64,000 nucleotides of DNA, from positions 22,542-86,541 of IMG/VR virus record IMGVR_UViG_3300033463_000022; one strand, 5' to 3'. Below, in pieces: positions 16,267 through 32,482 of this stretch (position 1 is its first letter; every line of letters begins with the position of its first letter). Origin of the DNA: a virus. Taxonomy: Duplodnaviria > Heunggongvirae > Uroviricota > Caudoviricetes. Below the pieces are notes generated by a model that saw only the letters and a list, made by a program, of their open reading frames with translations, did not search any database and was not told the DNA's origin. The position numbers and the translations under genes are program-made.

Positions 16267-17466
16267 ATGCGTATTCAACACAATGTCACCGCGATGAACA
16301 GCTATCGCAACTTCAACACCAACAACTCCAATCTCAGCAAGAACCTTGAGAAGCTCTCTTCTGGCTACAAGATCAACCGCGCTGGAGACGACGCCGCAGG
16401 TCTGGCAATCTCCGAGAAAATGCGTGCATAGATCACTGGCCTCGAGGGCGCAACCAAAAACGCCAAGGACGGCATTTCCCTTATCCAGACCGCAGAAGGC
16501 GCACTTACCGAGGTACATTCGATGCTCAACCGTATGACTACTCTTGCCGAGCAGTCTGCAAACGGCACTTATGATAACGACGTCGACCGTACCCAGCTCC
16601 AGAAGGAAGTAGATGCGCTCAAGACCGAAATCAACCGCATTGCCGATTCCACCAACTTCAACGGCATCAAGCTTCTTGATGGCAGCCTTGGTGGATGGAA
16701 CAACACCACCGATATCACCGATTCCATGACTTACACTAGCTTCGATGTTTCTGGCGGCAAGCTCAAGAACGGCGACGCAGTCACCGTTACTCAGAGCGCT
16801 AGCGGCATGGATATTAAGTCGGTCACCGTAGGCGGTGTGACTATCGCAAAGGCCGATCTGGCTGGTAAGGGTCTTACTTGGGAAGCAGATGCCGACAATC
16901 CCGCAGGGAAGACTGGCGCATATAAGTTTACTCTCAAGGTCTCTGACCGCTCCAAGGCAACTGCCGAAGTCGCCGACGCCATTGGCGAAGGTCTCTCGGT
17001 CGCTGTCAACGTAAAGGAGAAGGTTACCTCCAATACTGATCTCGCGTTCACCACTGATGGCACTGGCGGCGGTCTGACTCTTCAGATTGGCGATACCAGC
17101 GACGACTTCAACAAGATGAATGTTCTTGTTGGAGATATGCACACCCAGGCTCTGGGCATTGCTGATATTGATATCAGCACCCAGGAAGGTGCATCCAGCG
17201 CTATGGATCTTATCAAGAACGCTATCAACCAGGTCTCTGACACTCGTGGCGGTCTTGGTGCCCTCCAGAATCGTCTTGACCACACCATCAACAACCTCGG
17301 AACCATGCGCGAGAACATTCAGAACGCTGAGTCCAACATCCGCGATACTGACGTCGCAGAGGAAATGATGGCGTACACCAAGAACAACATTCTGAACCAG
17401 GCTGCTCAGGCTATGCTTGCGCAGGCGAATCAGATGCCTCAGGGCGTACTCCAGCTCCTTCAGTAA
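16267..17466 (+). CDS. fliC: flagellin (FliC/Hag family), 399 codons, 1 in-frame TAG read as Gln
   Basis: [16 protein letters not shown]...[51 protein letters not shown] and C-terminal [15 protein letters not shown]...[16 protein letters not shown]; the universal MRAQI Gln is encoded by TAG. Confidence 0.9.
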
Positions 17467-17565
17467 TACGCAAACTGCGGAGGGGCTTCAATGCCCCTCC
17501 AAAGTAAAAAATTTGCAATAATTAAAAAAATATTTTATAATATATTTGTAAGAATTAAGAAAGGC

Positions 17566-17674
17566 ACTTACAGCAATTATTTACATAATGTAAATGTCGT
17601 AGGTTCAACTCCTACTTCCGCCACGCGGCAGAATAGCTCAATGGATAGAGCGTTACAACTATATTTTGTGCCTT
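17566..17674 (+). ncRNA. circularly permuted tRNA-like (Y-RNA/YrlA-like) element framed by AAGGCAC/GTGCCTT
   Basis: Order is anticodon 3'-strand TGTAA, variable ATGTC, T-arm GTAGG-TTCAACT-CCTAC, acceptor 3' TTCCGCC, tight loop ACGC, acceptor 5' GGCAGAA, D-arm GCTC-AATGGATA-GAGC, anticodon 5'-strand TTACA; RNA ends sit in the anticodon-stem position and carry TTACAGCAAT. Confidence 0.4.
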
Positions 17675-17684
17675 GTTTGTATAA

Positions 17685-17758
17685 TCCGGCTTAGCATAAT
17701 AGTAGTGCAGGGGTCTCTAAAACCTCGGGACTCGGAGCGTAACCGAGAGCCGGTGCCA
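17685..17758 (+). tRNA. candidate amber-suppressor tRNA, anticodon CUA (reads UAG), with Gln-like identity elements
   Basis: Acceptor TCCGGCT/AGCCGGT (1:72 unpaired), D-arm GCAT-AATAGTA-GTGC, stem GGGGT/ACCTC with loop CTCTAAA, T-arm CTCGG-AGCGTAA-CCGAG, discriminator G73, CCA encoded; D and T loops noncanonical. Confidence 0.5.
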
Positions 17759-18822: not shown

Positions 18823-20343
18823 ATGAACACTTTGCTTAAGTCCATGAAAGAGTCTCAGAACTATAAGTTGACCGAGAACGGTGGCGTTTCCTACAAGTCC
18901 ACCCTGTCCGGTCTGCTCGACCTGTTCGCGATGGGCGGCTCCTATCGTTCTCGCTCTGACGACGACTGTATCCTCTTGTTCAAGAAGGCTTTCGCAGAGG
19001 ACGAAGTGCACGCATTGCGTTGCCTCTTCTACCTTCGTGACTGCCGCGGCGGCCAGGGTGAGCGTCGCTTCTTCCGCGTTGTCATGAAGTGGCTGGCTAA
19101 CGAGAACACCGAGGCTGCTCGTCGTAACCTTGAACACGTTCCTGAGTTCGGCCGCTGGGATGACCTCTACGCTTTCCTCGGCACTCCGCTCGAGCGTGAG
19201 GCTATGGGAATGATCCGGCACCAGCTCGCTCTGGACGTTCAGTGCAAGACCCCGTCTCTGCTCGCCAAGTGGCTGCCGTCCGAAAACGCTTCGTCTCTCA
19301 AGACTCGCGCTCTTGCTACGAAGACTCGTCGCTTCCTGATGATGACCTCGAAGCAGTACCGTAAGGTTCTGTCTACGCTTCGTAAGCGCATCAACGTCCT
19401 TGAGCGTCTTATGAGTGAGGGCCGTTGGGACGAGATCGAGTTCGATAAGATTCCGTCTAAGGCGGGCCTTATCTACCGCAACGCCTTTGCTCGTCACGAC
19501 GTAGAGCGTGCCAAGAACGAGAACGTCCAGACCTATGCTGACTTCGCTAAGGATAAGACCACTAAGGTCAACGCAGAGACTCTCTATCCTTGCGATGTTG
19601 TGCATAAGGCTCTTGGCACTCGTAGCTACTGGGGCGGACATCAATCCGCGATGGATGCGACTGAGCGCGCTATGTTGAATAAGTACTGGGATAATCTTCA
19701 CGATTACTTCCAGAACGCTGTGTTCAACGGTGTTGCTGTTGTTGATACGTCCAGTTCCATGTGGAGCTGTCGCGGCAACGTGAAGGTTGCTCCTATGGAC
19801 GTGGCATGCGCCCTGGGTATGTACTGCGCTGAGAAGTGCAATCCGAACAGTCCGTGGCACGGTCACTACATCAGCTTCTCTCACCAGGCTCGTCTTGTTG
19901 AGATTGAGGGTGTAGACTTCGTGGATAAGGTTCGCCGCATCCGCGACCACGACCTCTGCGAGAACACCAACATCGAGAGCGTGTTCGAGCTTATCCTCAG
20001 CCTCGCGGTGAAGAACCGCGTTCCGCAGAAGGATATGCCTAAGAACATCGTCATTATCTCCGATCTCGAATTCGATGAGGCTCAGGGGTACGATCGTCGT
20101 TCCAATGAGACCGTTATGGAAAAATGGGTTCGGAAATATGAGGAGTGCGGATATACTTGCCCTAAGATTGTCTTCTGGAATGTTGATTGTCGAAATGACA
20201 ATATTCCCATGAAAGACAACGGCAATGTCACTTTTGTGTCGGGGTATAGTCCCTCCCTTTTCGAGCAGCTCCTTACCGGCAAAACCGGTTTGGATTTCGT
20301 GCTCGATAAGCTCGACAGCGAAAGATACTCCTGTATCCGCTAA
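18823..20343 (+). CDS. TROVE-like plus vWA (MIDAS) domain protein, Ro60/Rsr-like; GC-rich and TAG-free
   Basis: N-terminal pattern NGGVSYKSTLSGLLDLF..GGSY and RDCRGGQGER resembles the Ro60 TROVE N-terminus; MIDAS VAVVDTSSSM...IVIISDLEFD; strong RBS AAGGAGAATGAAAG-ATG; GC content far above flanks. Confidence 0.55.
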   Translation: MNTLLKSMKESQNYKLTENGGVSYKSTLSGLLDLFAMGGSYRSRSDDDCILLFKKAFAEDEVHALRCLFYLRDCRGGQGERRFFRVVMKWLANENTEAARRNLEHVPEFGRWDDLYAFLGTPLEREAMGMIRHQLALDVQCKTPSLLAKWLPSENASSLKTRALATKTRRFLMMTSKQYRKVLSTLRKRINVLERLMSEGRWDEIEFDKIPSKAGLIYRNAFARHDVERAKNENVQTYADFAKDKTTKVNAETLYPCDVVHKALGTRSYWGGHQSAMDATERAMLNKYWDNLHDYFQNAVFNGVAVVDTSSSMWSCRGNVKVAPMDVACALGMYCAEKCNPNSPWHGHYISFSHQARLVEIEGVDFVDKVRRIRDHDLCENTNIESVFELILSLAVKNRVPQKDMPKNIVIISDLEFDEAQGYDRRSNETVMEKWVRKYEECGYTCPKIVFWNVDCRNDNIPMKDNGNVTFVSGYSPSLFEQLLTGKTGLDFVLDKLDSERYSCIR

Positions 20344-21320: not shown

Positions 21321-21884
21321 ATGAAGATTATTCTGCCCAAACCAATTATTTTCATTGAAAGATGGAAATACAGTAAAGTCTATGGTATTTATGTTTCCAA
21401 TAGAGGCAATTTCCGCGACAAGAATAAACAGGTTATAAAGCCTATGGTTGGCAGTAATGGTTACCTGTCCGTTCAGCTCAAATATGGTACTGAGCTCGCT
21501 CACAGAATTGTCGCTGCGGTGTGGCTGCCATGCGAAGATATGTATCATTTAACAGTTGACCACCTTGACCATAACAAGCGCAACAACTCTGTTTCCAATC
21601 TGGAATGGGTGACGGAGAAAGAGAATCTTCAAAGGGCGCAAGCCGATCTAGAAAGCACTCAACAGACAGTTAAAATTCAAACCAACGCCTCTATTGGTAT
21701 ATTCACTGATGCTGAATATAAAAACGTCATTATTTCATTTGACGGCGCTGCCGAAGCTGCGAAATGGTTGCGAAAAAAGCATCCTGAACTGTGCCGGTTC
21801 AGCGAAGATAGCACGATTGAGAGAATTGCCAAAGCGTGCAACAAAACCGCCGCATGGTGTTCCTACTACTGGAAAGCACTCTAA
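21321..21884 (+). CDS. HNH homing endonuclease
   Basis: NGYLSVQL..G...LAHRIVAAVWLP...HLTVDHLDHNKRNNSVSNLEWVTEKEN. Confidence 0.7.
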   Translation: MKIILPKPIIFIERWKYSKVYGIYVSNRGNFRDKNKQVIKPMVGSNGYLSVQLKYGTELAHRIVAAVWLPCEDMYHLTVDHLDHNKRNNSVSNLEWVTEKENLQRAQADLESTQQTVKIQTNASIGIFTDAEYKNVIISFDGAAEAAKWLRKKHPELCRFSEDSTIERIAKACNKTAAWCSYYWKAL

Positions 21885-21907: not shown

Positions 21908-22213
21908 ATGTTAAAGATTTGGGTTGATGATATAAGATCCGCTCCGGACGGATATATTTGGTGTAAGAGCACCAACGAAGCAAAGAAAACTATCTGGGAT
22001 AGTGATGATATGTCTGTCCTGCTTGACCTCGATCACGACGCCGGTGATTTCTTCTATGACGGCGGCGATTACGTCAAAATTCTCGATTGGTTAGAGTATT
22101 ATGCCATGGGTAAATTCGATATCTCGGTACATATTCATAGCATGAACCCTGTCGGTCGTCAGAATATGGTTCGCATCTGCCAAAGAAATGGCTGGAAGGT
22201 GGAGGTAGACTGA
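21908..22213 (+). CDS. hypothetical protein (101 aa)
   Basis: ORF with AAAGGAGAG RBS. Confidence 0.45.
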   Translation: MLKIWVDDIRSAPDGYIWCKSTNEAKKTIWDSDDMSVLLDLDHDAGDFFYDGGDYVKILDWLEYYAMGKFDISVHIHSMNPVGRQNMVRICQRNGWKVEVD

Positions 22214-22437
22214 TGGAAAAGTTTTATAAGGTTAGCGAAAGTAAATTGAGAGAACTTATTTATGATTCTCTCAGATGGATTGCTCTCGAAAATGGGGGTG
22301 TAGATAATTGGGATTGGTATGGTGCATCGCTTACGGACTATCTACATGGATATAACGAAACAGAGTCATCATTATATGATAGCATCTATGATATTGCTAC
22401 TGATCTTGTCCATCAAGAGTATGAGGAGGTGGAGTAA
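22213..22437 (+). CDS. hypothetical protein (74 aa)
   Basis: Overlapping start ATGG; acidic protein. Confidence 0.4.
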   Translation: MEKFYKVSESKLRELIYDSLRWIALENGGVDNWDWYGASLTDYLHGYNETESSLYDSIYDIATDLVHQEYEEVE

Positions 22438-22742
22438 TGCCTCGAATGAGTGGACATAGCAAGGAGCGCTCCGTCGAGCGAGTAGATGGCGTTGATAATT
22501 TCTCCGACGCCCGCAAGTATGCTAAGCAAGCTTGGCAGAGCGGGAACACAATTAATCACTATATTAAATATCCCAAGTTTTTTAGTTATCTGCAAAACAA
22601 AAAGAATCAAACATGTACTTGCTCATTAAGAATTTATAAGGATAATATTTATATATGGAGAGGACGATTGAGGACACTTGTAACTGTCCATCCAATACCC
22701 GATAGATATATTAAAGAAATGGAAGTGATAGATAATGGCTAA
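22437..22742 (+). CDS. hypothetical protein (101 aa)
   Basis: Translationally coupled (TAATG). Confidence 0.4.
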   Translation: MPRMSGHSKERSVERVDGVDNFSDARKYAKQAWQSGNTINHYIKYPKFFSYLQNKKNQTCTCSLRIYKDNIYIWRGRLRTLVTVHPIPDRYIKEMEVIDNG

Positions 22743-23538
22743 TTATCATAGTGATAAATGGATTATGGATAGAATGATGGAGCATTACAAAGAAGGGTGC
22801 TCCATCATTCCAGAAAAACAGGTGGTTGGTCTCTTTTATCAAGGGTCTGGCAACTATGGATTAGATGTTGAAACCTCTGATGTTGACACGCGCATGGCTA
22901 TCGTACCTACTTTTCACGATATTGCGATGAATAAAAAAGCGATTAGTACCACACACATTCGGGCCAACGAAGAGCACATTGACCTAAAAGATATTAGAAA
23001 TCTTTGTGCAACCTTCAAAAAGCAGAATATGAATTTCGTCGAGCTCCTTTTTACACCCTATAAAGAAGTGAACCCCCTCTATCAAGAGCAATGGGATAGG
23101 CTCGTGCGGGAACGCGAGGTCATCGCGCGTTACTCTCCCTATCAGGCGGTCAAGACCATGAAAGGTATCGCTATGGAGAAGTACCATGCGATGGAACACG
23201 AATATCCGTCAAAGTTGGAAGTCTTGGCTAAGTACGGCTACGACCCGAAACAACTCCACCATCTTTTGAGGGTACTCGACTTCTTGGACAGATATATCAG
23301 AGGCGAGGCTTATGAAGATTGTTTGCGGCCGCGCCCTGCCGACCTTGAGTACCTTAAAAAGGTGAAAATGGGATGCCATGACCTTGAAACCGCGCGCGCT
23401 ATCGCGAACGCCGCAATTAAAACCGTCACCGATATCGCTGATGGTTATACTTCCGCCCACGAATGCACTTGCGATCCCTACGCTGAGGAACTAATCGACG
23501 ATGTGCAATATGAAATTATGAAGATTGCCGTAGAATAG
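22735..23538 (+). CDS. putative nucleotidyltransferase (pol-beta superfamily)
   Basis: GSGNYGLDVETSDVDT matches the G[SG]x9-13D.D NTase motif. Confidence 0.5.
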   Translation: MANYHSDKWIMDRMMEHYKEGCSIIPEKQVVGLFYQGSGNYGLDVETSDVDTRMAIVPTFHDIAMNKKAISTTHIRANEEHIDLKDIRNLCATFKKQNMNFVELLFTPYKEVNPLYQEQWDRLVREREVIARYSPYQAVKTMKGIAMEKYHAMEHEYPSKLEVLAKYGYDPKQLHHLLRVLDFLDRYIRGEAYEDCLRPRPADLEYLKKVKMGCHDLETARAIANAAIKTVTDIADGYTSAHECTCDPYAEELIDDVQYEIMKIAVE

Positions 23539-25061: not shown

Positions 25062-26444
25062 ATGTCTGAACACGTCGGTTATATCGTGAAGGTTGAATTC
25101 CTTCGTCCGCACTCTAACGCTGATCGCCTCAATATTCTCACCGTTTTCGGCGAAGATACCTGTGTTTCTAAGGAAGTTCAGGTTGGCGATATCGGCATCT
25201 ATTTCCCTTGCGATCTCCAGCTGAGCGAGGAGTACTGCGACCAGAACCACCTTTGCCGCAAGAAGGCAGATGGTACTCCCGATACTGGTTATCTTGAGCG
25301 CAACACTCGTCATGTGACCGCCATCAAGCTCCGCGGTGAGAAGTCTAGCGGTCTCTATATGCCTCTCTCTTCTCTTGCTTACTGCGGCAACGCTTCCTTT
25401 GAGGTCGGTCAGAAGATCGACATGGTGAACGGTCATGAAATCTGCCGCAAGTATATCCCCCGTTCTAACACCCGCCAGGGGCAGGTTAGCGAGGGCAACC
25501 GCACTCGCAAAAAGCGCGTGCCTTTGGCGCCTCTCTTCGCTGAGCACGCTGACACTGAGCAGCTTGCTTACAACCTGGCAGCCTTTAAGCCTGGTGACCT
25601 CGTTGAGATCACCTTGAAGATGCACGGCACTTCTCAGCGTACTGGCTACCTGCCTAAGTACTCTGGCGAAAAGCGCACCTTCTGGCAGAAGCTGTTCAAT
25701 AAGCCTGGCACTCCTATCTACGACTGGGGTTATGTAACCGGCACTCGCCGCACCGTACTTAACGACTTCGACGAGGGCGGCTTCTATGGCAACAACGAGT
25801 TCCGTTCGGGCCCCGCCAAGTTCTTCGAGGGTAAGTTGGAGAAGGGTGAAACTGTCTACTACGAAGTCGTAGGTTTCACCACTTCTGGTGCGCCTATCAT
25901 GGCTTCTCAGTCCAACAAGCAGGTTGATAAGCTTCTTGGCGACAAGAGCTTCTCTCAGAAGTACGGCGAGACTACAGTCTTCTCCTATGGTTGCACTCCG
26001 GACGGTGATCTCCAGCAGGACTTCTATGTCTACCGCATGACCTTCACCAACGAGGATGGCTTCGTCGTAGAGTATACTCCCGACTTCATGCGCTATCGTT
26101 GCGAGCAGATGGGAGCTAAGTGCGTACCGCTGCTTTGGAAGGGATTTATTCCAAAGACGCCAAAGCGTTATCCATCCAATGAAGATGGCCTCACCTTCCG
26201 CGAGGAAGAGTGTAGCGCTGGCGAGTATGTTAAGGCAATCGCCGAGGAATACTTCGACGGTCCCGACCCTGTCGGTAAGACCCACGTTCGCGAGGGCGTT
26301 GTCTGCCGTATCGTAAATCGTCCGAAGTTCTGCGCCTACAAGCACAAGAACTTCTCCTTCAAGGTGCTCGAAGGCCTCATTAAGGAGAACGCGCAGGCTC
26401 CTGACATGGAAGAAGCCGAAGATATCAAGAGCGATGAAATCTAG
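25062..26444 (+). CDS. Rnl2-family ATP-dependent RNA ligase fused to an N-terminal tRNA-binding OB domain; GC-rich, TAG-free
   Basis: Nucleotidyltransferase motif I EITLKMHGTSQRTG matches T4 Rnl2 KIHGTN; N-terminal VKVEFLRPHSNADRLNIL resembles the Myf/CsaA tRNA-binding fold. Confidence 0.65.
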   Translation: MSEHVGYIVKVEFLRPHSNADRLNILTVFGEDTCVSKEVQVGDIGIYFPCDLQLSEEYCDQNHLCRKKADGTPDTGYLERNTRHVTAIKLRGEKSSGLYMPLSSLAYCGNASFEVGQKIDMVNGHEICRKYIPRSNTRQGQVSEGNRTRKKRVPLAPLFAEHADTEQLAYNLAAFKPGDLVEITLKMHGTSQRTGYLPKYSGEKRTFWQKLFNKPGTPIYDWGYVTGTRRTVLNDFDEGGFYGNNEFRSGPAKFFEGKLEKGETVYYEVVGFTTSGAPIMASQSNKQVDKLLGDKSFSQKYGETTVFSYGCTPDGDLQQDFYVYRMTFTNEDGFVVEYTPDFMRYRCEQMGAKCVPLLWKGFIPKTPKRYPSNEDGLTFREEECSAGEYVKAIAEEYFDGPDPVGKTHVREGVVCRIVNRPKFCAYKHKNFSFKVLEGLIKENAQAPDMEEAEDIKSDEI

Positions 26445-27048
26445 CTATAAACAAATAGCTTGCGGCGGCATGGTTGCTGGCTTCCTCATAGGGTGCGCAG
26501 CTGCTGCTAGTACCCTCGCCGCCGCAAGCCTTCCCTTTCTAAAACCCCTCATTTTTCCCTTCGCTCTTCTCTTGATTTGTTATGGCAGATTCCATTTATT
26601 TACAGGAAACCTCTATAAAATTGGAAGAGATGAGTCTCTGTCCGCAATAACTAAATATAACTTACTTGCACTTAACTACATTTCCAATTTGCTAGGAACT
26701 TTTTTGACGAGCCTTCTCATAAAAGTTCCAACAGAAGCAATGATGTTTGATAAAGCAGCGCTCGGCGCAAGGAAGATTTTTTTCTTAGGCATCGGTTGTA
26801 ATATCCTCGTATGTTTAGGTGTTAAGCTCTTTAAAGTCTCTCCTTTCGCTACCTATTGTTGCACTGCTTTGTTTGTAGCTTGCGGATTCGAGCACTCTAT
26901 AGCGGATATGTATTATGCGCTATGTCTTCCATTCTCTTGGTCGTATCTCCTAGGTTTTGGTTCTGTAGTAGTGGTTGTGACTGCTGGTAATATAATAGGT
27001 GCTTTTATTGTGATTTTAATAGAAAGGATAATGGAACATGACTCTTGA
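26434..27048 (+). CDS. polytopic membrane protein (204 aa)
   Basis: Five or six hydrophobic helices. Confidence 0.45.
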   Translation: MKSSYKQIACGGMVAGFLIGCAAAASTLAAASLPFLKPLIFPFALLLICYGRFHLFTGNLYKIGRDESLSAITKYNLLALNYISNLLGTFLTSLLIKVPTEAMMFDKAALGARKIFFLGIGCNILVCLGVKLFKVSPFATYCCTALFVACGFEHSIADMYYALCLPFSWSYLLGFGSVVVVVTAGNIIGAFIVILIERIMEHDS

Positions 27049-27292
27049 GCTATTCAAAAAGTCTATCTACAAAATCCGCGAGTTTGTTAATAAGGCATCA
27101 GAAGTCGAGAAGCTAACTGGCTTCAACTGGACAGAGTCTTTCATCGGTGACTTGTTCGACGTTTTCTATGATGTAATGATGCCTAATGCAACAGATGAAG
27201 ATTTCGAAGCCTTTGGCGATTTGCTATTTGCTAATGAAATCAAAGACGATGATATTGAAAATGTTTGGGAACTTTATAAAGAGAGCCTTTGA
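27038..27292 (+). CDS. hypothetical acidic protein (84 aa)
   Basis: ORF followed by a terminator hairpin overlapping the stop. Confidence 0.4.
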   Translation: MTLELFKKSIYKIREFVNKASEVEKLTGFNWTESFIGDLFDVFYDVMMPNATDEDFEAFGDLLFANEIKDDDIENVWELYKESL

Positions 27293-27366
27293 ACAAAGGC
27301 TCTCTTTACTTTTTTAATTATTTATATTATAATATTTATAGAAACTGAAAGAAGGTGTGAGTTCAA

Positions 27367-27582
27367 ATGAGAGATTTCTATGGAGAGATTGATAAGGCAC
27401 TGCAAAGCTATGAACAGTTTAAGCCCTGTCATATTCATAATACAGAATGGATTTGTAATCGCATCGACTGGTGTTATAAGTGGCGGAAAATCACCAAAGA
27501 GCAGATGGAAGAGCTCGTCAACCGTGTAATAGCAGTACTCGACAACGAGCTTGTGAAAGTTTGTAGAAAGAAGGGGTACTGA
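27367..27582 (+). CDS. hypothetical protein (71 aa)
   Basis: Promoter TTTACT-N17-TATAAT and GAAGG RBS upstream. Confidence 0.4.
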   Translation: MRDFYGEIDKALQSYEQFKPCHIHNTEWICNRIDWCYKWRKITKEQMEELVNRVIAVLDNELVKVCRKKGY

Positions 27583-28277
27583 TGGCACGATATGTGGTTT
27601 CCGATCTCCACGGCAGGTTTGACCTCTATCAAGAGATAGAGAAGTTTAGAAAGTCTGGAGATAAAATTATTTGTCTGGGTGACTGCGGCGACCGCGGTCC
27701 GCAGAGCATTGAAGTATGCCAAGCCATTGCAGATAATCCCGATTGGATGTGTCTGATGGGCAATCACGAGCATATGACGCTTGAAGCCCTTAAAGAAGAT
27801 ATATATTGCAGAAGTAGTAGTTACTATAATCCAGATGCCTACTCTGTTTCTTTTGATAATGGCGGAGAAGATACCTACAATGGCATGATGGAAGATCCCC
27901 GATGGTGGATTGACTATCTGAGCAAACTCCCTTATAGAATTAATATTGAGAACGAGCTTGGGCTCAATCTGATCCTCACTCATGCGGGCTTTGATCCGAA
28001 CTACGAACCGAAAAAGTGGGATTATATCTGGAATCGCTCTCATATCAATATGCCGTGGCCCGTAGACCACAAATTTGATAGAACTCTCCTAATCCATGGT
28101 CACACTCCGATCCCCGCTATTAACGAGGATTGGAAGCCGCAGGATGGCTCCTACTCCTATGCCGATGGGCATAAAATCAACATTGACGCCGGCAGTGTAT
28201 GGACGGGAGCGACAATCCTGCTCGACATTGACTCGTTCGACGAGCACATCTTCGATATAGAGGGGGAAAACAAGTGA
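27582..28277 (+). CDS. calcineurin-like metallophosphoesterase (Ser/Thr phosphatase or ApaH-like)
   Basis: DLHG, GDCGDRGP and GNHE motifs. Confidence 0.7.
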   Translation: MARYVVSDLHGRFDLYQEIEKFRKSGDKIICLGDCGDRGPQSIEVCQAIADNPDWMCLMGNHEHMTLEALKEDIYCRSSSYYNPDAYSVSFDNGGEDTYNGMMEDPRWWIDYLSKLPYRINIENELGLNLILTHAGFDPNYEPKKWDYIWNRSHINMPWPVDHKFDRTLLIHGHTPIPAINEDWKPQDGSYSYADGHKINIDAGSVWTGATILLDIDSFDEHIFDIEGENK

Positions 28278-28451
28278 GGGTATTGAGTGGATATTTCTTC
28301 ACAAAGCGCAATGGAATAGTTCCTGTCCCTCCCGACCATCTTGCCGTAATCAACCTCGCTCCGAAAACTTATTTTAATAATTTTGACCGTTCAATTGAAG
28401 AGAATGCTGACCTGCGTGGTTATATGTTTTTGATAGAAGGTGAGGATAAAG

Positions 28452-28964
28452 ATGACTCGTGAATTAAGAATTCTGGTAGGCGTGCCTGGAGTAGGAAAGT
28501 CTACTTGGGCGAAGCGTGAAGCGGCATGTCTCGATGCCGATGGATGGTCTACTGCTATCATCAGTCGCGACAAGATCCGTTTCCGCTTGCTCGACGAAAA
28601 TCCGACCGACGATTACTTTGCCTACGAGAATCAGGTATTCAAGGAGTTTGTTGACGAAATCAATGAATGCCTGTATCTTGGTGTTGATTACATATTTGCT
28701 GATGCCACTCACATCTCCTACAATTCGCGTGCTAAGCTGCTGCGTCAGTTGAAGATTGACCCCGACGTCGCGATTCGCTTCGATGTGTTCGACCTCCCTC
28801 TTGAAGTGGTACTTTATCGCAATAGTCTCCGTGAAGGGCGTGAATGCGTACCCGTCAAGGCTGTGAAGAACATGGTAGCTGCTTTTAAGACGCCCACTTT
28901 CCTCGAAACTGAAGATTGCGGCTTGAAGAATGACGTTTGTATTGTGAAGCACAGTAAGGAGTGA
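28452..28964 (+). CDS. polynucleotide 5'-kinase (T4 Pnk kinase-domain-like)
   Basis: P-loop ILVGVPGVGKSTWAK and CVPVKAVKNM parallel T4 Pnk GCPGSGKSTWA and VPIDVLRSM; RBS GGTGAGGATAAAG. Confidence 0.65.
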   Translation: MTRELRILVGVPGVGKSTWAKREAACLDADGWSTAIISRDKIRFRLLDENPTDDYFAYENQVFKEFVDEINECLYLGVDYIFADATHISYNSRAKLLRQLKIDPDVAIRFDVFDLPLEVVLYRNSLREGRECVPVKAVKNMVAAFKTPTFLETEDCGLKNDVCIVKHSKE

Positions 28965-28968
28965 AGCT

Positions 28969-29532
28969 ATGAATAAAATTTTTCTTACCTCAGATCTCCA
29001 TTTTATGCACGATCGGGAGTTCATCTGGGGTCCTCGCGGTTTCAAGAACGTTCAAGAAATGAACGAAGCGATCGTCAAGCGGGCCTGGGAAGTTATGGAA
29101 GCCAATGATGACCTCTATATTCTTGGCGACCTAATGCTCAAGGACGATGAAATGGGCTTAAAACTCATTAACCAGATGCCTGGCCGCAAGTTCATTGTCG
29201 CAGGGAACCACGATACCGATAGTCGAATTAATAAGTATATTGAACAGGTGTCTGGCCTCGAAGCGATTCAATACGCAATGAGACTTAAATACAACGGTTA
29301 TCACTTTTTTCTCACTCACTTTCCTTGTCTGACTGGCAATCTTGAACATGAATCCTTAAAGCAGACCACTTGTAACCTCTTCGGTCATACGCACTCGAAA
29401 GATAAGTTCTATCAAGATATCCCTTATATGTATAACGTAGCGGTTGACGCTCATGACTGCTATCCCGTCTCGATCGACGAGATTATTGAAGATATGGAAG
29501 CAAAAGTAAAAGAATGTAAGGAGATGCTTTGA
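28969..29532 (+). CDS. metallophosphoesterase (candidate 2',3'-phosphatase partner of the kinase)
   Basis: DLHFMHD, ILGDLM and GNHD motifs; directly downstream of the kinase. Confidence 0.6.
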   Translation: MNKIFLTSDLHFMHDREFIWGPRGFKNVQEMNEAIVKRAWEVMEANDDLYILGDLMLKDDEMGLKLINQMPGRKFIVAGNHDTDSRINKYIEQVSGLEAIQYAMRLKYNGYHFFLTHFPCLTGNLEHESLKQTTCNLFGHTHSKDKFYQDIPYMYNVAVDAHDCYPVSIDEIIEDMEAKVKECKEML

Positions 29533-29535
29533 ACA

Positions 29536-29892
29536 ATGAAGTGCATTAATTGCGGAGGCGCTCCCTGTGAGTTACATCATGTTGTTCCTCTCGCGCTTGG
29601 TGGAAATGACATACCATCTAATAAAGTTCCTCTGTGTAGTAAATGTCACGCCCTTATTCACAATCTTAATGCAGACAGAAGAGGAACCAACTGGCGTAAT
29701 CTACAAGCTGCTGGCATTCACAAAGCAAAAGAGCGTGGTGTTAAGTTTGGTAAGCCATGTAGTAAGAAGCCCGATAATTGGAATGACGTTATTTCTAAAT
29801 GGCAAGCAGGGGAGATCACAGCAGTAAAGGCTATGGAGCTTACCGGCATGACCAAAACAACCTTTTACAAGTATGTGAAGGTATGGAGGTAG
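29536..29892 (+). CDS. HNH endonuclease with C-terminal resolvase-type HTH
   Basis: CELHHVVPLALGG...CSKCH and ...TGMTKTTFYKY. Confidence 0.6.
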   Translation: MKCINCGGAPCELHHVVPLALGGNDIPSNKVPLCSKCHALIHNLNADRRGTNWRNLQAAGIHKAKERGVKFGKPCSKKPDNWNDVISKWQAGEITAVKAMELTGMTKTTFYKYVKVWR

Positions 29893-30242: not shown

Positions 30243-31526
30243 ATGACACCTATTTACAATGCACGCAAAGAACTTGGCTGGAAGAAGACAGTACTTACGA
30301 GTCTCAACCACCTACTCGCCATGTTCGGCGCTACGATTCTAGTTCCAATCCTTGTACAATCATACGGCTTGCCCCTTTCAATATCTACTGCCCTCTTTAT
30401 GTCAGGAATTGGGACTCTACTCTTTCACCTGTTTACCAAGTTTAAAGTCCCCGCCTATCTCGGCTCTAGCTTCGCCTATCTCGGCGGTTTCGCAACAATA
30501 GCAGGAATGTATGAGGGTGTAGATCCTCAGACCAAGTTAGCCTATGCTTGCGGCGGCATCGTAATGGCTGGTCTAATCTACCTTGTCCTTGCAGGTATTG
30601 TGTATAAAGTGGGCGCAGATAAGGTAATGAAATACCTGCCTCCTGTGGTTACAGGTCCGGTAATTATTCTAATTGGCTTGACTTTAGCGCCGAGTGCTGT
30701 AACGAATGCGGCAATGTGTTGGCCCCTGGCTCTTACTGCCCTTGCCATTATCGTAATCTGTAATATTTATGGGCGAGGTATGGTAAAGATTATGCCTATC
30801 CTTTTAGGTGTAGCTGGTGCGTATATCGCTGCAATGATAGCGCAATACTTCGGAGTAACCAATGTTGATGGAAGTCCTCTGATTACACTTGCGGCAGCCG
30901 CCTCTCCGGTCGGTTTGCCAGACTTCGTGCTCGCCAAGTTCGACATTTCCGCAATTCTCGTAATGGCGCCCATCGCTCTAGCTAGCATGATGGAACACAT
31001 TGGAGATATTAGCTCTATCTCTGCGACAATTGACCGCCCCTTGCTCAGCGATCCCGGCCTACATCGTACACTCATGGGTGACGGATTGGCAACTTCCCTC
31101 GCCGGTCTTTTTGGCGGACCCGCAAACACCACCTATGGCGAAAATACTGGCGTTCTCGTTCTCAGTAAGGTTTATGACCCCTTCGTAGTGGAGCTTGCGG
31201 CGATATTTGCCATGCTCATAGGATTCCTGCCACCGGTCGCCGCAATTATAGGTTCTATTCCTACCGCAGTCATTGGTGGTATCTCCTTCATCCTTTATGG
31301 TATGATCTCTGCTATTGGTGTCCGTAACCTAGTAGAAAGCAAGACGGATCTAAAGGATTCTCGCAACCTTATTATAATTGCCGCTATCTTTGTGTGCGGA
31401 CTCGGGTTTACTAATGGCCTCACATTTAGCATCGGTTCTACTCCGATCACGCTTACTGGGCTCGCTATAGCGGCGGCCGCAGGCACTATTCTAAATGCGG
31501 TTTTACCTAACGAACATAATAATTAA
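30243..31526 (+). CDS. NCS2-family nucleobase (xanthine/uracil) permease
   Basis: Twelve or more TM segments, typical NCS2 layout; GC-rich. Confidence 0.7.
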   Translation: MTPIYNARKELGWKKTVLTSLNHLLAMFGATILVPILVQSYGLPLSISTALFMSGIGTLLFHLFTKFKVPAYLGSSFAYLGGFATIAGMYEGVDPQTKLAYACGGIVMAGLIYLVLAGIVYKVGADKVMKYLPPVVTGPVIILIGLTLAPSAVTNAAMCWPLALTALAIIVICNIYGRGMVKIMPILLGVAGAYIAAMIAQYFGVTNVDGSPLITLAAAASPVGLPDFVLAKFDISAILVMAPIALASMMEHIGDISSISATIDRPLLSDPGLHRTLMGDGLATSLAGLFGGPANTTYGENTGVLVLSKVYDPFVVELAAIFAMLIGFLPPVAAIIGSIPTAVIGGISFILYGMISAIGVRNLVESKTDLKDSRNLIIIAAIFVCGLGFTNGLTFSIGSTPITLTGLAIAAAAGTILNAVLPNEHNN

Positions 31527-31537
31527 GGAGAAAACAA

Positions 31538-32482
31538 ATGATTGGTGTTATTATCTTCTTCGCGGTTCTCGCTATTGCACTCAATATCACCTTTGGTATT
31601 CTGAGTAAGGAAAAGCCGTCTATGGACGACTATGATAAGCGGCTGTGCCACAAGTTCAAGCGCATTCGTTGGATTGCCACTATTGTTCCTACGGTCTTAA
31701 TGGTTTTAATTATCGCTTTTGCCGGTATCAAGATCATCGACTCCACCACCGTTGGCGTCGTAAAGACTTTCGGCAAGATTGACCACAGTATTTCTGGCGG
31801 TCTGAATTTTGTCAATCCGATTACCGACACAGTTACGACATATGACTTGAAGGTCCAGGCTCATGAAGCTTCCTTCTCGTCTTACACTAAAGATGCCCAG
31901 CCCGTCACCGGCGCCATTGAAGTTCAGTATTCTCTGAACCCCGCGTACATCCTTGATATCGCGCAGGAATACGGTACAATCGAGCAGCTTCAGGCGAAGC
32001 TCGGCAATACCATCGAAGAGCGTACGAAAATCGTCTTTGCTCGATATGGTGCGATGACGCTGCTGGAAAACCGCTCTAGCCTGTCCGCAGAAGTCACGGC
32101 AGAGGTTAAGCAGCTTGAAGAGCAGTTTAACGTAAAGTTCAACCAGGTTATCGTCCGCGATATCGACTTCTCTGATGCGTTCGAAGCTTCTGTTGAAGCT
32201 AAGATGGAAGCGGAGCAGGCTGCTCTGAAGGCCGAGCAGGAAAAGAAGACCGCAGTTATTAAGGCTGAGCAGGAGCAGGAAGTCGCTCGTATTGCTGCTC
32301 AGGCAAAAATTGCCGCCGCTGAAGGCGAAGCCCAAGCTTTGAAGATTACGCAGGAAGCTTTGGAGCAGATGCCCGAGAAGTGGATTCAGCAGATGTACCT
32401 CGAAAAGTGGGATGGCAAACTGCCCACCTACATGGTTGGCGATGGCACTAGCATTATGCTTACGCCTTCTCTTGGAGAGTAA
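31538..32482 (+). CDS. SPFH/band-7 (prohibitin/HflK-like) membrane protein
   Basis: N-terminal TM helix, SPFH core and C-terminal AEQ-rich coiled coil. Confidence 0.7.
   Translation: MIGVIIFFAVLAIALNITFGILSKEKPSMDDYDKRLCHKFKRIRWIATIVPTVLMVLIIAFAGIKIIDSTTVGVVKTFGKIDHSISGGLNFVNPITDTVTTYDLKVQAHEASFSSYTKDAQPVTGAIEVQYSLNPAYILDIAQEYGTIEQLQAKLGNTIEERTKIVFARYGAMTLLENRSSLSAEVTAEVKQLEEQFNVKFNQVIVRDIDFSDAFEASVEAKMEAEQAALKAEQEKKTAVIKAEQEQEVARIAAQAKIAAAEGEAQALKITQEALEQMPEKWIQQMYLEKWDGKLPTYMVGDGTSIMLTPSLGE

What the first reader, a model, noticed from the sequence alone, without database searches (positions are those of the whole stretch)
25062..29532. tRNA heal-and-seal repair toolkit: tRNA-binding Rnl2 ligase plus T4-Pnk-like kinase plus two metallophosphoesterases
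An Rnl2-type RNA ligase (motif KMHGTS) is fused to an N-terminal tRNA-binding OB domain. It lies 2 kb from a T4 Pnk kinase-domain homologue (GVPGVGKSTWA) that is immediately followed by a calcineurin-type phosphoesterase, with another phosphoesterase upstream. Together these supply 5'-kinase, 2',3'-phosphatase and sealing activities needed to repair tRNAs cleaved by host anticodon nucleases (PrrC, RloC, colicin-like). Combined with about 18 phage tRNAs and the Ro60-like/Y-RNA pair, this forms an unusually rich RNA maintenance module.
Basis: partly seen in the sequence, partly recalled or inferred. Interest (0 to 1): 0.7.

Follow-up and report, generated by a model that had tools for sequence, protein, structure and literature searches.

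The report
Phage RNA break-repair gene cassette
A large gut or rumen phage carries a conserved set of genes (RNA ligase, RNA 5'-kinase, two phosphoesterases and a nucleotide-adding enzyme) that most likely mends RNAs, probably tRNAs, cut by bacterial defence nucleases; this kind of kit is already known in phages, here with a less familiar ligase type.

Summary
The reading as an RNA heal-and-seal kit holds, with corrections.

- **Ligase (25062-26444).** It is not Rnl2. It has the Rnl5 (DraRnl/NgrRnl) layout: an N-terminal PheRS-B2/Trbp111-like OB domain, then the nucleotidyltransferase domain, and no Rnl2 C-domain. The OB domain is the hallmark of that family, not a new fusion.
- **Kinase (28452-28964).** It is a stand-alone Pnk-type polynucleotide 5'-kinase, and every donor-site and acceptor-site residue of CthPnk/T4 Pnk is conserved.
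- **Phosphoesterases.** MPE 27582-28277 is lambda-phosphatase/CthPnkp-phosphatase-like. MPE 28969-29532 is aq_1665-like.

Among 70 related phage loci, 65 keep a Pnk kinase and 59 keep RlaP within 10 kb of the ligase. Short kinases are followed by the small MPE in 41 of 42 cases. Kinases fused to an HD phosphohydrolase never are (0 of 34). The MPEs therefore most likely supply the 3'-end healing step.

tRNA as the substrate is inferred, not shown. Similar ligase-plus-Pnk pairs are already read as tRNA repair in mycobacteriophages and jumbo phages. This is a new member of a known kind, of modest interest.

The parts
21908..22213 (+). cREC (cyclic-phosphate processing receiver-like) domain protein, 101 aa. 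Predicted accessory that opens 2',3'-cyclic phosphate ends.
   Evidence: Pfam PF20274 cREC_REC, E 5e-19, 69.2 bits against a cutoff of 27. Found within 10 kb of the ligase in 18 of 36 relatives with the window-type layout, against 1 of 29 with the HD-fused layout. The predicted role comes from PMC7824862 and is not tested.
22735..23538 (+). Divergent RlaP-family Pol-beta nucleotidyltransferase, 267 aa. Predicted to add 1-2 nt to damaged RNA 3'-OH ends before ligation.
   Evidence: phrog_388 nucleotidyltransferase 6.2e-19. Pfam RlaP is only 16.8 bits for the window protein (cutoff 23), but 23 of 36 family members hit RlaP, best 4.9e-8. The Pol-beta motif G37 S38 ... D49 D51 is invariant, as is D83, a candidate third acidic residue. 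Found within 10 kb of the ligase in 59 of 70 loci, and directly after it in layout A. RlaP biochemistry: PMC12776372.
25062..26444 (+). ATP-dependent RNA ligase of Rnl5 (DraRnl/NgrRnl) architecture, 460 aa. N-terminal OB domain (about 6-130), then the NTase domain. Motif I is T184-x-K186-x-H188-G189. The protein ends about 30 aa after motif V.
   Evidence: Pfam PHA02142 OB 8-102 and RNA_ligase 181-435. TIGR02306 DRB0094 1.1e-10. Family profile against PDB: NgrRnl 1.1e-10, T4 Rnl2 0.03. AF2 pLDDT 93.3. Foldseek: the top 13 hits are NgrRnl, E 6e-18, TM 0.72. Invariant K186, E268, E411, G412, K427, K429 across 104 homologues.
27582..28277 (+). Lambda-phosphatase-like (PPP-type) binuclear metallophosphoesterase, 231 aa. 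Candidate 2',3'-cyclic phosphodiesterase / 3'-phosphomonoesterase.
   Evidence: Metallophos 8.5e-13 and phrog_246 NinI-like 9.4e-39. Profile against PDB: lambda phosphatase 1.7e-22, then the CthPnkp phosphatase domain 4J6O at 4.6e-9. Invariant D8 H10, G33 D34, D37 R38 G39, G60 N61 H62 E63, H134. Present in 33 of 36 short-kinase loci and 0 of 29 HD-fused loci. Lies directly upstream of the kinase in 27 of 42 cases.
28452..28964 (+). Stand-alone Pnk-family polynucleotide 5'-OH kinase, 170 aa from ATG 28452. The mechanical ORF starts at GTG 28440.
   Evidence: AAA_33 5e-15 and phrog_505 polynucleotide kinase 3e-16. Profile against PDB: CthPnk 1e-16, PSTK, Pnkp1, T4 Pnk 4e-14. Invariant or near-invariant K20 S21, S42 R43 D44 R47, D88 A89 T90, R131, R134. 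These correspond to CthPnk K21 S22, D38, R41, T80, R120, R123. AF2 pLDDT 94.3; the top folds are PSTK, CthPnk, PNKP, Pnkp1 and T4 Pnk.
28969..29532 (+). Small aq_1665-type binuclear metallophosphoesterase, 187 aa. Obligate downstream partner of the kinase and candidate 3'-end healing phosphoesterase.
   Evidence: phrog_547 9.5e-42. Profile against PDB: 1XM7 aq_1665 1.5e-24. MPE motifs conserved: H11 and H14, G53 D54, G79 N80 H81, H117, G139 H140 H142. It lies within 1 kb downstream of 41 of 42 short kinases and 0 of 34 HD-fused kinases. The same pairing is seen in three independent distant kinase neighbourhoods.
27277..27333 (+). Terminator-like hairpin (27277-27308) overlapping a promoter-like site (27305-27333). 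Suggests the ligase unit and the MPE-kinase-MPE unit are transcribed separately.
   Evidence: Consensus scan only: a 14-bp stem plus T-run, then TTTACT-17-TATAAT. The number of terminator-like sites in the region is not above shuffles, so this is weak evidence.

Best explanation
This is a phage-encoded RNA end-healing and end-sealing cassette. It counters RNA breaks that carry 2',3'-cyclic phosphate and 5'-OH ends. Such breaks are most plausibly host tRNAs, or the phage's own tRNAs, cut in the anticodon loop by defence ribonucleases.

Proposed steps:
1. The 2',3'-cyclic phosphate is opened and removed. The lambda-phosphatase-like MPE (27582-28277) and/or the small MPE (28969-29532) do this, possibly with help from the cREC protein (21908-22213).
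2. The Pnk-type kinase (28452-28964) phosphorylates the 5'-OH. D44 acts as general base, and R47 and T90 hold the acceptor strand.
3. If nucleotides were lost, the RlaP-like nucleotidyltransferase (22735-23538) adds one or two to the 3'-OH.
4. The Rnl5-type ligase (25062-26444) is adenylylated on K186 and seals the 3'-OH/5'-PO4 nick in a duplex-like context. The N-terminal OB domain supports adenylylation and substrate engagement.

Shown here: family membership, intact catalytic residues, and conserved, rearrangement-resistant gene linkage. Inferred: the activities themselves, the division of labour between the two MPEs, the order of steps, and tRNA as the substrate.
For: Ligase.
- It has Rnl5 architecture with all nucleotidyltransferase motifs invariant.
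- A separate DNA ligase sits in the replication module, so this enzyme is not the replicative ligase.

Kinase.
- The best sequence and fold matches are RNA or polynucleotide kinases.
- All CthPnk/T4 Pnk catalytic and acceptor residues are conserved.

Phosphoesterases.
- MPE231 is closest to lambda phosphatase and to the CthPnkp phosphatase domain. Both of these have 2',3'-cyclic phosphodiesterase plus monoesterase activity (PMC2190708, PMC3675462).

Linkage, from 70 related IMG/VR loci with full flanks.
- 65 have a Pnk kinase, 59 have RlaP, and all genes are co-oriented.
- There are two alternative layouts. In one, the ligase is followed by RlaP and a kinase::HD fusion. In the other, the ligase is followed at some distance by MPE231, a short kinase and MPE187.
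- MPE187 follows 41 of 42 short kinases and 0 of 34 HD-fused kinases. MPE231 is present in 33 of 36 short-kinase loci and 0 of 29 HD-fused loci.
- A phosphoesterase always accompanies the kinase, either fused or in trans.
- The loci represent 34 ligase clusters at 90% identity. Both layouts occur within single 70%-identity clusters.

More distant relatives.
- The trio and RlaP persist where ligase identity drops to 38-39% (L087, L088).
- The same neighbourhood appears around kinases only 36-41% identical to the window kinase.
- Bacillus phage PBC2 has a Pnk-domain gene directly after its ligase.

Other.
- Inteins are inserted at ligase motif I in some homologues, which argues that the active site is under selection.
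- The same logic is described for jumbo phages and mycobacteriophages (PMC7824862, PMC5511906).
Against: - No activity has been measured for any of these proteins or for any close homologue.
- Characterised Rnl5 enzymes seal nicks in duplexes whose 3'-OH strand is RNA. Their physiological substrates are called 'uncharted' (PMC5397189). DraRnl is linked to radiation recovery, not tRNA repair.
- The OB domain's resemblance to tRNA-binding domains is at fold level only.
- The ligase scores below the curated cut-offs of TIGR02306, PF21189 and PF09414. It carries about 120 extra residues compared with NgrRnl.
- MPE231 equally resembles protein Ser/Thr phosphatases and ApaH. MPE187's only close solved relative has no known function.
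- The ligase and the MPE-kinase-MPE trio are separated by unrelated genes and possibly by a terminator.
- The related loci share ancestry, so the co-occurrence counts are not independent events.
- No host anticodon nuclease is known for this uncultured phage.
Confidence: 0.68

Rival explanations
1. The cassette is a real RNA (or RNA-DNA junction) nick-repair system, but it is not aimed at tRNA. It might repair rRNA, mRNA or phage transcripts cut by ribotoxins. Alternatively it might seal nicks with ribonucleotide 3' ends in duplex nucleic acid, the substrate characterised for DraRnl and NgrRnl.
For: Rnl5 enzymes are template-directed nick sealers whose biological role is unknown (PMC4408790, PMC5397189). 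Nothing shows tRNA recognition. The phage already supplies about 20 tRNAs of its own, which is an alternative way to survive tRNA cleavage.
Against: The partners (Pnk kinase, 2',3'-phosphoesterases, RlaP, cREC) are those expected for metal-independent RNase damage, whose best-known targets in phage conflicts are tRNA anticodon loops (PMC7824862). RlaP restored the function of over-damaged tRNA in vitro (PMC12776372). The OB domain's nearest folds outside Rnl5 are tRNA-binding modules (PheRS-beta, YtpR, MetRS-C). tRNA genes and a YrlA-like RNA lie within 8 kb.
Confidence: 0.2
2. The genes are neighbours in an accessory-gene island but work separately. MPE231 would be a NinI/lambda-type protein phosphatase or an ApaH-like Ap4A hydrolase. 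MPE187 would be a phosphodiesterase that degrades cyclic-nucleotide defence signals. The kinase would act on a small molecule. Only the ligase would touch RNA.
For: MPE231 matches phrog_246 'NinI-like serine-threonine phosphatase', ApaH and PrpA/B models. Calcineurin-like phosphodiesterases in phages are also proposed to attack cyclic-nucleotide signals (PMC7824862). AAA_33 is a broad family, and adenylate kinase and PFKFB folds score nearly as well as Pnk in Foldseek. Unrelated genes are interspersed.
Against: The small MPE and the HD fusion are strictly complementary (41 of 42 against 0 of 34). MPE231 shows the same pattern with the short kinase (33 of 36 against 0 of 29). These patterns are hard to explain without a shared pathway. 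The linkage survives rearrangements and holds down to 38% ligase identity. The polynucleotide acceptor-site residues D44, R47 and T90 are invariant.
Confidence: 0.07
3. The kinase and phosphoesterases process DNA ends, as mammalian PNKP does, for phage DNA repair or replication. The 460-aa ligase would seal DNA.
For: Pnk-family kinases accept DNA 5'-OH ends in vitro (PMC3902929). Mammalian PNKP is among the fold hits. The cassette lies a few kb upstream of PhoH and the replication module.
Against: The phage has a dedicated ATP-dependent DNA ligase at 42993-44159. The 460-aa enzyme matches RNA ligase clades and not DNA ligases. Rnl5 enzymes require an RNA 3'-OH strand (PMC4408790). RlaP and cREC are RNA-repair associated (PMC12776372, PMC7824862).
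Confidence: 0.05

Closest known systems
Rnl5 RNA ligases: Deinococcus radiodurans DraRnl (DRB0094) and Naegleria gruberi NgrRnl (PDB 5COT)
   Same: Domain order is an N-terminal PheRS-B2-like OB module, then the nucleotidyltransferase domain, with no C-terminal appendage. Motif I T-x-K-x-H-G matches the essential DraRnl residues T163, K165, H167 and G168 (PMC1807946). Glu of motif III, Glu of motif IV and Lys-x-Lys of motif V are kept. NgrRnl is the best sequence-profile and fold match.
   Different: Only 14-17% identity to NgrRnl. The protein is 460 aa against about 340, with about 120 residues of insertions and a short extra C-terminal helical tail. It scores below the TIGR02306 cut-off (40.9 against 151 bits). 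It is phage-borne and embedded in a healing cassette, whereas DraRnl and NgrRnl have no assigned pathway. Activity is untested.
Bacteriophage T4 Pnkp + Rnl1 (and Rnl2) tRNA repair pathway
   Same: The same logic of 5'-kinase, 2',3'/3'-phosphatase and ATP-dependent ligase countering an anticodon nuclease. The kinase shares the T4 Pnk residues K15, S16, D35, R38, T86 and R126. T4 also encodes an RlaP (NrdC.11; PMC12776372).
   Different: The kinase is not fused to a DxDxT (HAD) phosphatase; phosphoesterases of the metallophosphoesterase superfamily are supplied as separate genes. The ligase is neither Rnl1 nor Rnl2, because there is no Rnl2 C-domain.
Bacterial Pnkp-Hen1 system (Clostridium thermocellum Pnkp: kinase, metallophosphoesterase, ligase) and Pnkp1-Rnl-Hen1
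   Same: The same three chemistries. The same superfamilies for the kinase (CthPnk is the top profile hit, 1e-16) and for the phosphatase (the CthPnkp phosphatase domain 4J6O is the second-best hit of MPE231, 4.6e-9).
   Different: Here there are three or four separate genes rather than one tri-domain protein. The ligase belongs to a different clade: the CthPnkp ligase domain 3TY5 scores only E 0.013 in Foldseek. No Hen1 methyltransferase was seen among the ORFs scanned, so there is no evidence for 2'-O-methyl 'immunisation' of the repaired junction.
RNA ligase + Pnkp pairs of mycobacteriophages (Omega, Cjw1, Cluster E such as Whirlwind and CrystalP) and of Bacillus phages (PBC2, Kirov, Thrax)
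   Same: The same ligase family (31% and 46% identity over 90% or more of the length, annotated 'RNA ligase'). A Pnk-domain gene lies next to the ligase in PBC2. The pair is already interpreted as tRNA repair against host defence (PMC5511906, citing Zhu et al. 2004).
   Different: Those phages use fused kinase-phosphatase proteins. The window uses a stand-alone kinase with two MPEs in trans, plus cREC and RlaP. None of these ligases has been characterised biochemically, as far as the held literature shows.
Large-phage RNA repair repertoire described by comparative genomics (Iyer et al. 2021, PMC7824862; Burroughs and Aravind 2016, not held)
   Same: The combination of ATP-dependent RNA ligase, PNK, phosphoesterase, RlaP, cRec, ROT/TROVE-like protein and about 20 tRNAs.
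   Different: That survey reports mainly Rnl1 and Rnl2 ligases and HAD phosphatases. It mentions calcineurin-like and HD phosphatases only in 'a small number' of phages and treats divergent actinophage ligases as outliers. Here the Rnl5-like ligase and MPE/HD healing enzymes are the rule across a large uncultured gut/rumen phage clade.

Membership tests
Rnl5 (DraRnl/NgrRnl) RNA ligases | Distinctive N-terminal OB-like domain preceding the nucleotidyltransferase domain | tested here: met
   Pfam PHA02142 OB-fold at residues 8-102, E 8.6e-5. The family profile aligns with NgrRnl residues 8-179, covering the N domain and motif I, at E 1.1e-10. Foldseek aligns the full length to NgrRnl.
Rnl5 (DraRnl/NgrRnl) RNA ligases | Covalent nucleotidyltransferase motifs with a motif I lysine nucleophile, and no domain C-terminal to the NTase | tested here: met
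   K186, E268, E411, G412, K427 and K429 are invariant in 104 homologues. The protein ends 31 aa after K429 with two short helices.
Rnl5 (DraRnl/NgrRnl) RNA ligases | Passes the curated equivalog model TIGR02306 (RNA_lig_DRB0094) | tested here: not met
   40.9 bits against a cut-off of 151.15, and only residues 10-196 align. It is therefore a divergent sister subfamily rather than an equivalog of DraRnl.
Rnl5 (DraRnl/NgrRnl) RNA ligases | ATP- and Mn-dependent sealing of 3'-OH/5'-PO4 nicks whose 3'-OH strand is RNA | not testable with these tools
   Requires biochemistry.
Rnl2 (T4 Rnl2 / kinetoplastid REL) RNA ligases | N-terminal NTase domain followed by the signature all-helical C-terminal domain | tested here: not met
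   The NTase domain is C-terminal here. T4 Rnl2 matches only the NTase core (profile E 0.028; Foldseek 3.6e-7, TM 0.3-0.4). The motif I 'KxHGT' that suggested Rnl2 is shared with DraRnl.
Pnk-family polynucleotide 5'-OH kinases (T4 Pnk, CthPnk) | P-loop Lys/Ser, general-base Asp with partner Arg (D-x-x-R), acceptor-binding Thr (DAT), and lid arginines | tested here: met
   Invariant or near-invariant in 26 homologues: G19 K20 S21; S42 R43 D44 R47; D88 A89 T90; R131 and R134. R127 of the window protein also aligns with the lid residue R116. These are mapped on CthPnk K21, S22, D38, R41, T80, R116, R120, R123 and on T4 D35, R38, T86, R126.
T4-type bifunctional Pnkp | Kinase fused to a C-terminal DxDxT (HAD) 3'-phosphatase domain | tested here: not met
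   The protein is 170-174 aa and kinase only. Relatives with a fused second domain carry an HD domain, not HAD.
Bacterial Pnkp (TIGR04075) / Hen1 system | Single polypeptide kinase-MPE-ligase with a Hen1 methyltransferase partner | tested here: not met
   The genes are separate. TIGR04075 gives only domain-level hits of 27.3 and 17.3 bits against a cut-off of 750. No Hen1 was found among the ORFs scanned. The rest of the about 147-kb genome was not examined.
Lambda-phosphatase-like (PPP) metallophosphoesterases | Motifs DxH, GDxxDRG, GNHE and downstream His ligands | tested here: met
   MPE231 has invariant D8 H10, G33 D34, D37 R38 G39, G60 N61 H62 E63 and H134. Lambda phosphatase 1G5B scores 1.7e-22. 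Activity on RNA ends was not tested.
RlaP (PF10127) RNA-ligase-associated Pol-beta nucleotidyltransferases | Match to PF10127 with the Pol-beta GS...DxD catalytic motif, and gene linkage to an RNA ligase | tested here: inconclusive
   The window protein scores 16.8 bits, below the cut-off of 23. However, 23 of 36 close homologues hit RlaP, best 4.9e-8. G37 S38 D49 D51 are invariant, with invariant D83 as a candidate third acidic residue. Linkage to the ligase holds in 59 of 70 loci.
cREC (PF20274) cyclic-phosphate processing receiver domain | Match above the Pfam gathering score | tested here: met
   69.2 bits against 27, E 5e-19. The enzymatic role is itself only predicted in the literature (PMC7824862).

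The most novel reading that the evidence does not exclude
The Rnl5-type ligase clade has no assigned physiological role. On this reading it is the dedicated sealing enzyme of a very widespread phage counter-defence pathway. Its PheRS-B2/Trbp111-like OB domain would act as a true tRNA-recognition module. In this lineage the 3'-end healing would be split between two different metallophosphoesterases: a lambda-like cyclic phosphodiesterase and an aq_1665-like monoesterase. That would also give the uncharacterised aq_1665/phrog_547 family its first function.
Probability: 0.3. Interest if true: 0.55.

Novelty: new member of a known kind. Interest (0 to 1): 0.35.

Why it matters
If the reading is right, a very abundant clade of large gut and rumen Firmicutes phages routinely carries an RNA repair kit. 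The ligase family has more than 2,300 clusters at 50% identity and at least 7,990 hits at E <= 0.001 among the 8,000 candidates scored (the cap) in the 90% set. That implies RNA-cleaving defences are a major pressure in these ecosystems.

It also gives the Rnl5 ligase family a concrete, testable biological context, where its function is currently called 'uncharted'. The strict either/or pattern (HD fused to the kinase, or MPEs in trans) is a clean natural experiment. It points to the aq_1665-type phosphoesterases as RNA 3'-end healing enzymes. The enzymes could also be useful RNA-end-modifying reagents.

The concept itself, phage heal-and-seal repair of nuclease-cut tRNA, is four decades old and already extended to jumbo phages and mycobacteriophages. 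The advance is therefore incremental.

Tried and rejected
- A DNA-level search of the region against 50,697 phage records found nothing, so no close cultured relative exists.
- Single-sequence phmmer of the ligase against PDB gave only T4 Rnl2 at E 0.7. A family profile and a predicted structure were needed to resolve Rnl5 from Rnl2.
- The Rnl2 assignment was rejected on architecture.
- T4-type Pnkp membership was rejected because there is no HAD domain. Bacterial tri-domain Pnkp membership was rejected because the genes are separate and the ligase clade differs.
- The RlaP family profile found no solved structure.
- The scan of genome contigs with the ligase alignment failed for lack of a conserved stretch. 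The single-protein scan gave only two MAG contigs.
- The large-database search with the small MPE returned only unnamed stand-alone proteins. It showed no kinase fusions, so it provides no Rosetta-stone evidence.
- The key comparative paper (Burroughs and Aravind 2016) is not held. A literature search for DUF2828 was uninformative.
- Foldseek of the kinase does not by itself separate Pnk from adenylate kinase or PFKFB folds. The argument rests on the conserved acceptor-site residues and on gene linkage.
- The promoter/terminator scan is only suggestive.

Full report
**1. What is in the interval**

All genes in the region are on the + strand.

| Coordinates | Product | Evidence |
|---|---|---|
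| 25062-26444 | Ligase, 460 aa, containing 'EITLKMHGTS' | |
| 26434-27048 | Formate/nitrite-transporter-like membrane protein | PF01226, 1.3e-26, |
| 27038-27292 and 27367-27582 | Two small ORFs with no family match | |
| 27582-28277 | Metallophosphoesterase, 231 aa | |
| 28274-28462 | 62-aa ORF | |
| 28440-28964 | P-loop kinase containing 'GVPGVGKSTWA' | |
| 28969-29532 | Second metallophosphoesterase, 187 aa, starting 4 nt after the kinase stop | |
| 29536-29892 | HNH endonuclease | |

Homologues of the kinase, and the gene call on an identical metagenome contig, begin at 'MTRELRIL'. The kinase therefore probably starts at ATG 28452.

The window is part of an uncultured phage genome. The identical ligase occurs in JGI, Logan and ENA metagenomes, with a longest contig of 147 kb. 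No DNA-level match exists among cultured phages.

**2. The ligase is Rnl5-type, not Rnl2**

- Pfam gives an N-terminal PHA02142 OB-fold (residues 8-102) and a C-terminal RNA_ligase domain (181-435). Both are just under the gathering score.
- PHROGs gives 'RNA ligase' at 2.8e-65.
- NCBIfam's only hit is TIGR02306, the model of Deinococcus DRB0094 (DraRnl). It scores 1.1e-10 but far below the equivalog cut-off.
- An exhaustive search found 2,309 clusters at 50% identity.
- An alignment of 104 diverse homologues has invariant K186, S191, E268, G271, Y309, Y324, E411, G412, K427 and K429. These include the motif I lysine, the motif III and IV glutamates and the motif V Lys-x-Lys.
- That profile hits Naegleria NgrRnl (5COT) at 1.1e-10 across the N domain and motif I. 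T4 Rnl2 reaches only 0.03.
- The AlphaFold model is confident, with pLDDT 93.3 and pTM 0.91.
- In Foldseek the first 13 PDB matches are all NgrRnl (E down to 5.8e-18, TM 0.72 on the target, full-length alignment). T4 Rnl2 follows at 3.6e-7 and covers the nucleotidyltransferase core only.
- The OB domain also picks up PheRS beta, YtpR and the MetRS C-domain, which are tRNA-binding OB modules.

This is what the literature says defines the family. [quoted passage not shown] The clade was named Rnl5 (PMC4408790).

Motif I here, T184-x-K186-x-H188-G189, matches the essential DraRnl residues T163, K165, H167 and G168 (PMC1807946). The 'fusion' is not new, and tRNA binding by the domain is unproven.

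The enzyme is a divergent Rnl5 relative. It is 14-17% identical to NgrRnl and about 120 residues longer. The phage has a separate ATP-dependent DNA ligase in its replication module (42993-44159), so the 460-aa enzyme is not the replicative ligase.

**3. The kinase**

- Pfam gives AAA_33 and PHROGs gives 'polynucleotide kinase'.
- The single sequence hits Pnkp1 and T4 Pnk in PDB.
- A 26-member family profile hits, in order: the Clostridium thermocellum Pnkp kinase domain (1.1e-16), PSTK, Pnkp1, T4 Pnk (3.9e-14) and mammalian PNKP. No dNMP kinase appears at E below 0.01.
- Conserved columns are G19 K20 S21, S42 R43 D44 R47, D88 A89 T90, N128 R131 and G133 R134. In the alignment, and according to PMC3902929, these correspond to the following CthPnk residues:
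  - the P-loop K21 and S22;
  - the general base D38 and its partner R41, which binds the acceptor strand;
  - the acceptor-binding T80;
  - the lid arginines R120 and R123; R127 of the window protein also aligns with R116.
- In T4 Pnk the equivalents are D35, R38, T86 and R126.
- The predicted structure (pLDDT 94.3) has PSTK, CthPnk, PNKP, Pnkp1 and T4 Pnk as its top folds. Adenylate kinases and PFKFB score almost as well, so fold alone is not decisive.

The protein has no second domain. It is therefore not a T4-type bifunctional Pnkp.

**4. The phosphoesterases**

MPE231 carries the PPP signature: D8-x-H10, G33-D34-x-x-D37-R38-G39 and G60-N61-H62-E63. Its profile hits lambda phosphatase at 1.7e-22, then the phosphatase domain of CthPnkp (4J6O) at 4.6e-9. 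PP1/PP2A and ApaH come after these. Lambda phosphatase and CthPnkp both have 2',3'-cyclic phosphodiesterase and phosphomonoesterase activity (PMC2190708, PMC3675462).

MPE187 keeps all metallophosphoesterase motifs. Its only close solved relative is Aquifex aq_1665 (1XM7, 1.5e-24), a protein of unknown function. A large-database search returned 1,250 unnamed, stand-alone homologues and no informative fusions.

**5. Missed partners upstream**

ORF 22735-23538 (267 aa) matches phrog_388 'nucleotidyltransferase' and, weakly, Pfam RlaP. Of 36 homologues, 23 hit RlaP, best 4.9e-8. The Pol-beta motif G37 S38 ... D49 D51 is invariant, and invariant D83 is a candidate third acidic residue. RlaP enzymes add one or two nucleotides to damaged RNA 3' ends. 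In vitro they were needed to restore function to over-damaged tRNA (PMC12776372).

ORF 21908-22213 is a cREC domain protein (69.2 bits against a cut-off of 27). This family is predicted to process cyclic phosphates and is reported to be linked to RNA ligases (PMC7824862).

**6. Conserved linkage**

A scan of IMG/VR returned 80 loci whose ligases are 55-66% identical. I searched their six-frame ORFs with profiles of each component.

Of 70 loci with full 10-kb flanks, 65 have a Pnk-type kinase, 59 have RlaP, 42 have MPE187, 34 have MPE231 and 20 have cREC. All are co-oriented with the ligase.

Two layouts occur:
- **Layout A:** ligase, RlaP and a kinase of about 300 aa, contiguous. The kinase's C-terminal half is an HD phosphohydrolase domain.
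- **Layout B (the window's):** RlaP and cREC lie upstream, and MPE231, a short kinase and MPE187 lie downstream.

| Kinase type in the locus | MPE187 within 1 kb downstream of the kinase | Any MPE187 within 10 kb | MPE231 within 10 kb | cREC within 10 kb |
|---|---|---|---|---|
| Short kinase (layout B) | 41 of 42 | 36 of 36 | 33 of 36 | 18 of 36 |
| HD-fused kinase (layout A) | 0 of 34 | 6 of 29 (divergent copies) | 0 of 29 | 1 of 29 |

A phosphoesterase thus always accompanies the kinase, either fused (HD) or in trans (MPE). That is the expected signature of a 5'-kinase/3'-phosphatase healing unit.

The loci are not trivially redundant. They fall into 34 ligase clusters at 90% identity, and both layouts occur inside single 70% clusters. 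The healing genes have therefore been exchanged while the ligase stayed.

The same module recurs in more distant settings:
- Two 148-kb contigs binned with Eubacterium and Oscillospiraceae MAGs, whose ligases are only 38-39% identical.
- The neighbourhoods of three kinases 36-41% identical to the window's, reached independently of the ligase.
- Cultured Bacillus phage PBC2, whose ligase (46% identical, annotated 'RNA ligase') is followed by a gene with a Pnk kinase domain.

Mycobacteriophages Omega, Thibault and Whirlwind carry the same ligase family at about 31% identity. The RNA ligase plus polynucleotide kinase pair of a Cluster E mycobacteriophage is already described as 'implicated in tRNA repair' (PMC5511906).

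**7. Mechanism and its limits**

The best-supported reading is an RNA end-healing and end-sealing cassette.
1. The phosphoesterases, possibly with cREC, remove the 2',3'-cyclic or 3'-phosphate.
2. The kinase phosphorylates the 5'-OH.
3. RlaP replaces lost nucleotides.
4. The Rnl5-type ligase seals the nick.

Shown here: homology, intact catalytic residues and linkage. Not shown: any activity, which MPE does what, and the substrate.

tRNA is the most plausible target, for four reasons. The partner set fits damage by metal-independent anticodon nucleases. The OB domain resembles tRNA-binding modules. The RlaP data concern tRNA. The phage invests heavily in tRNAs (17-20 genes).

However, characterised Rnl5 enzymes are generic sealers of nicked duplex RNA with 'uncharted' physiology (PMC5397189). 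A broader RNA or RNA-DNA nick-repair role is therefore a live rival.

A terminator-like hairpin and a promoter-like site at 27277-27333 suggest that the ligase and the MPE-kinase-MPE trio are separate transcription units (weak evidence).

**8. Comparison with the known, and novelty**

The logic is that of T4 Pnkp/Rnl1 and of bacterial Pnkp-Hen1. The parts list matches the RNA-repair repertoire described for jumbo phages: ligase, PNK, phosphoesterases, RlaP, cRec, ROT/TROVE and many tRNAs (PMC7824862).

What differs is the choice of parts. The ligase is Rnl5-like instead of Rnl1 or Rnl2. The kinase is split from its phosphatase. There are two metallophosphoesterases (or an HD fusion in sister phages) where T4 uses a HAD domain.

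I rate it a new member of a known kind. The modest points of interest are:
- a physiological context for the Rnl5 family;
- a candidate function for aq_1665-type phosphoesterases;
- the very large size of this uncultured phage clade.

Noticed in passing
window 17561-17677 (+), with 17685-17755 and 18823-20343: A YrlA-like (bacterial Y RNA) candidate. It matches the full length of RF02553 at 34.8 bits (gathering score 69), E 1.9e-4 over 16.5 kb. It keeps the tRNA-like T and D arms and a terminal stem. DUF2828 homologues lie within 10 kb of the ligase in 37 of 85 loci.
   Followed up: partly
window 16522-17466 and 1213-2139; also 11050-12039 and 12310-13704: The phage encodes a flagellin (Flagellin_N and Flagellin_C, 5.6e-29) and a FliD cap protein (3.8e-19). 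It also encodes a YadA-head repeat protein and an Ig-domain protein. These lie among the tRNA genes and are unusual cargo for a phage.
   Followed up: no
homologues P0155, P0161 (about 800 aa) and P0177, P0188 (about 600 aa) of the ligase: Inteins (Hint domain, in the 800-aa proteins also with a LAGLIDADG endonuclease) are inserted immediately after motif I (KxHGTS) of the ligase in several relatives.
   Followed up: partly
L004 10001-11344 (Hadza gut contig, 199.5 kb); window 17685-17755: The ligase of a 65%-identical relative has an in-frame TAG at codon 133, yet the source called a 447-aa product. That relative probably reads TAG as an amino acid. The window carries a tRNA with anticodon CUA but still ends 3 of 30 checked genes with TAG.
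   Followed up: partly
window 26434-27048 (gene call 26470-27048): A short (192-204 aa) formate/nitrite-transporter-family membrane protein lies between the ligase and the phosphoesterase genes. It is rare among relatives (5 of 85 loci) and its role in a phage is unexplained.
   Followed up: no
window 30243-31526 and 31538-32482: A xanthine/uracil permease homologue (2.3e-82) and an SPFH/Band 7 protein lie directly downstream of the cassette. Band 7 and PhoH also follow the cassette in relatives.
   Followed up: no
window 22213-22437; L004 11599-11880; L089 4098-4325: A small protein matching the T7 gp5.9 RecBCD-inhibitor family (1.8e-7) lies between cREC and RlaP. It recurs beside the ligase in distant relatives.
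   Followed up: no
window 29536-29892 and 21321-21884: Two HNH homing-endonuclease-like genes flank the cassette. One is HNH plus a resolvase-type HTH directly after MPE187, and the other is HNH_3 plus NUMOD4 before cREC. Both are nearly absent from relatives, which suggests recent mobile insertions.
   Followed up: no
L010-L085, layout A loci, e.g. L020 12745-13686: Sister phages encode kinase::HD fusion proteins of about 300 aa (AAA_33 plus HD) directly after ligase and RlaP. This Pnk-HD architecture differs from T4 Pnkp (HAD) and CthPnkp (MPE). Six of these loci also carry a divergent MPE187-like gene; in L028, L029, L043, L044 and L054 it lies 1.0-1.5 kb upstream of the ligase.
   Followed up: partly
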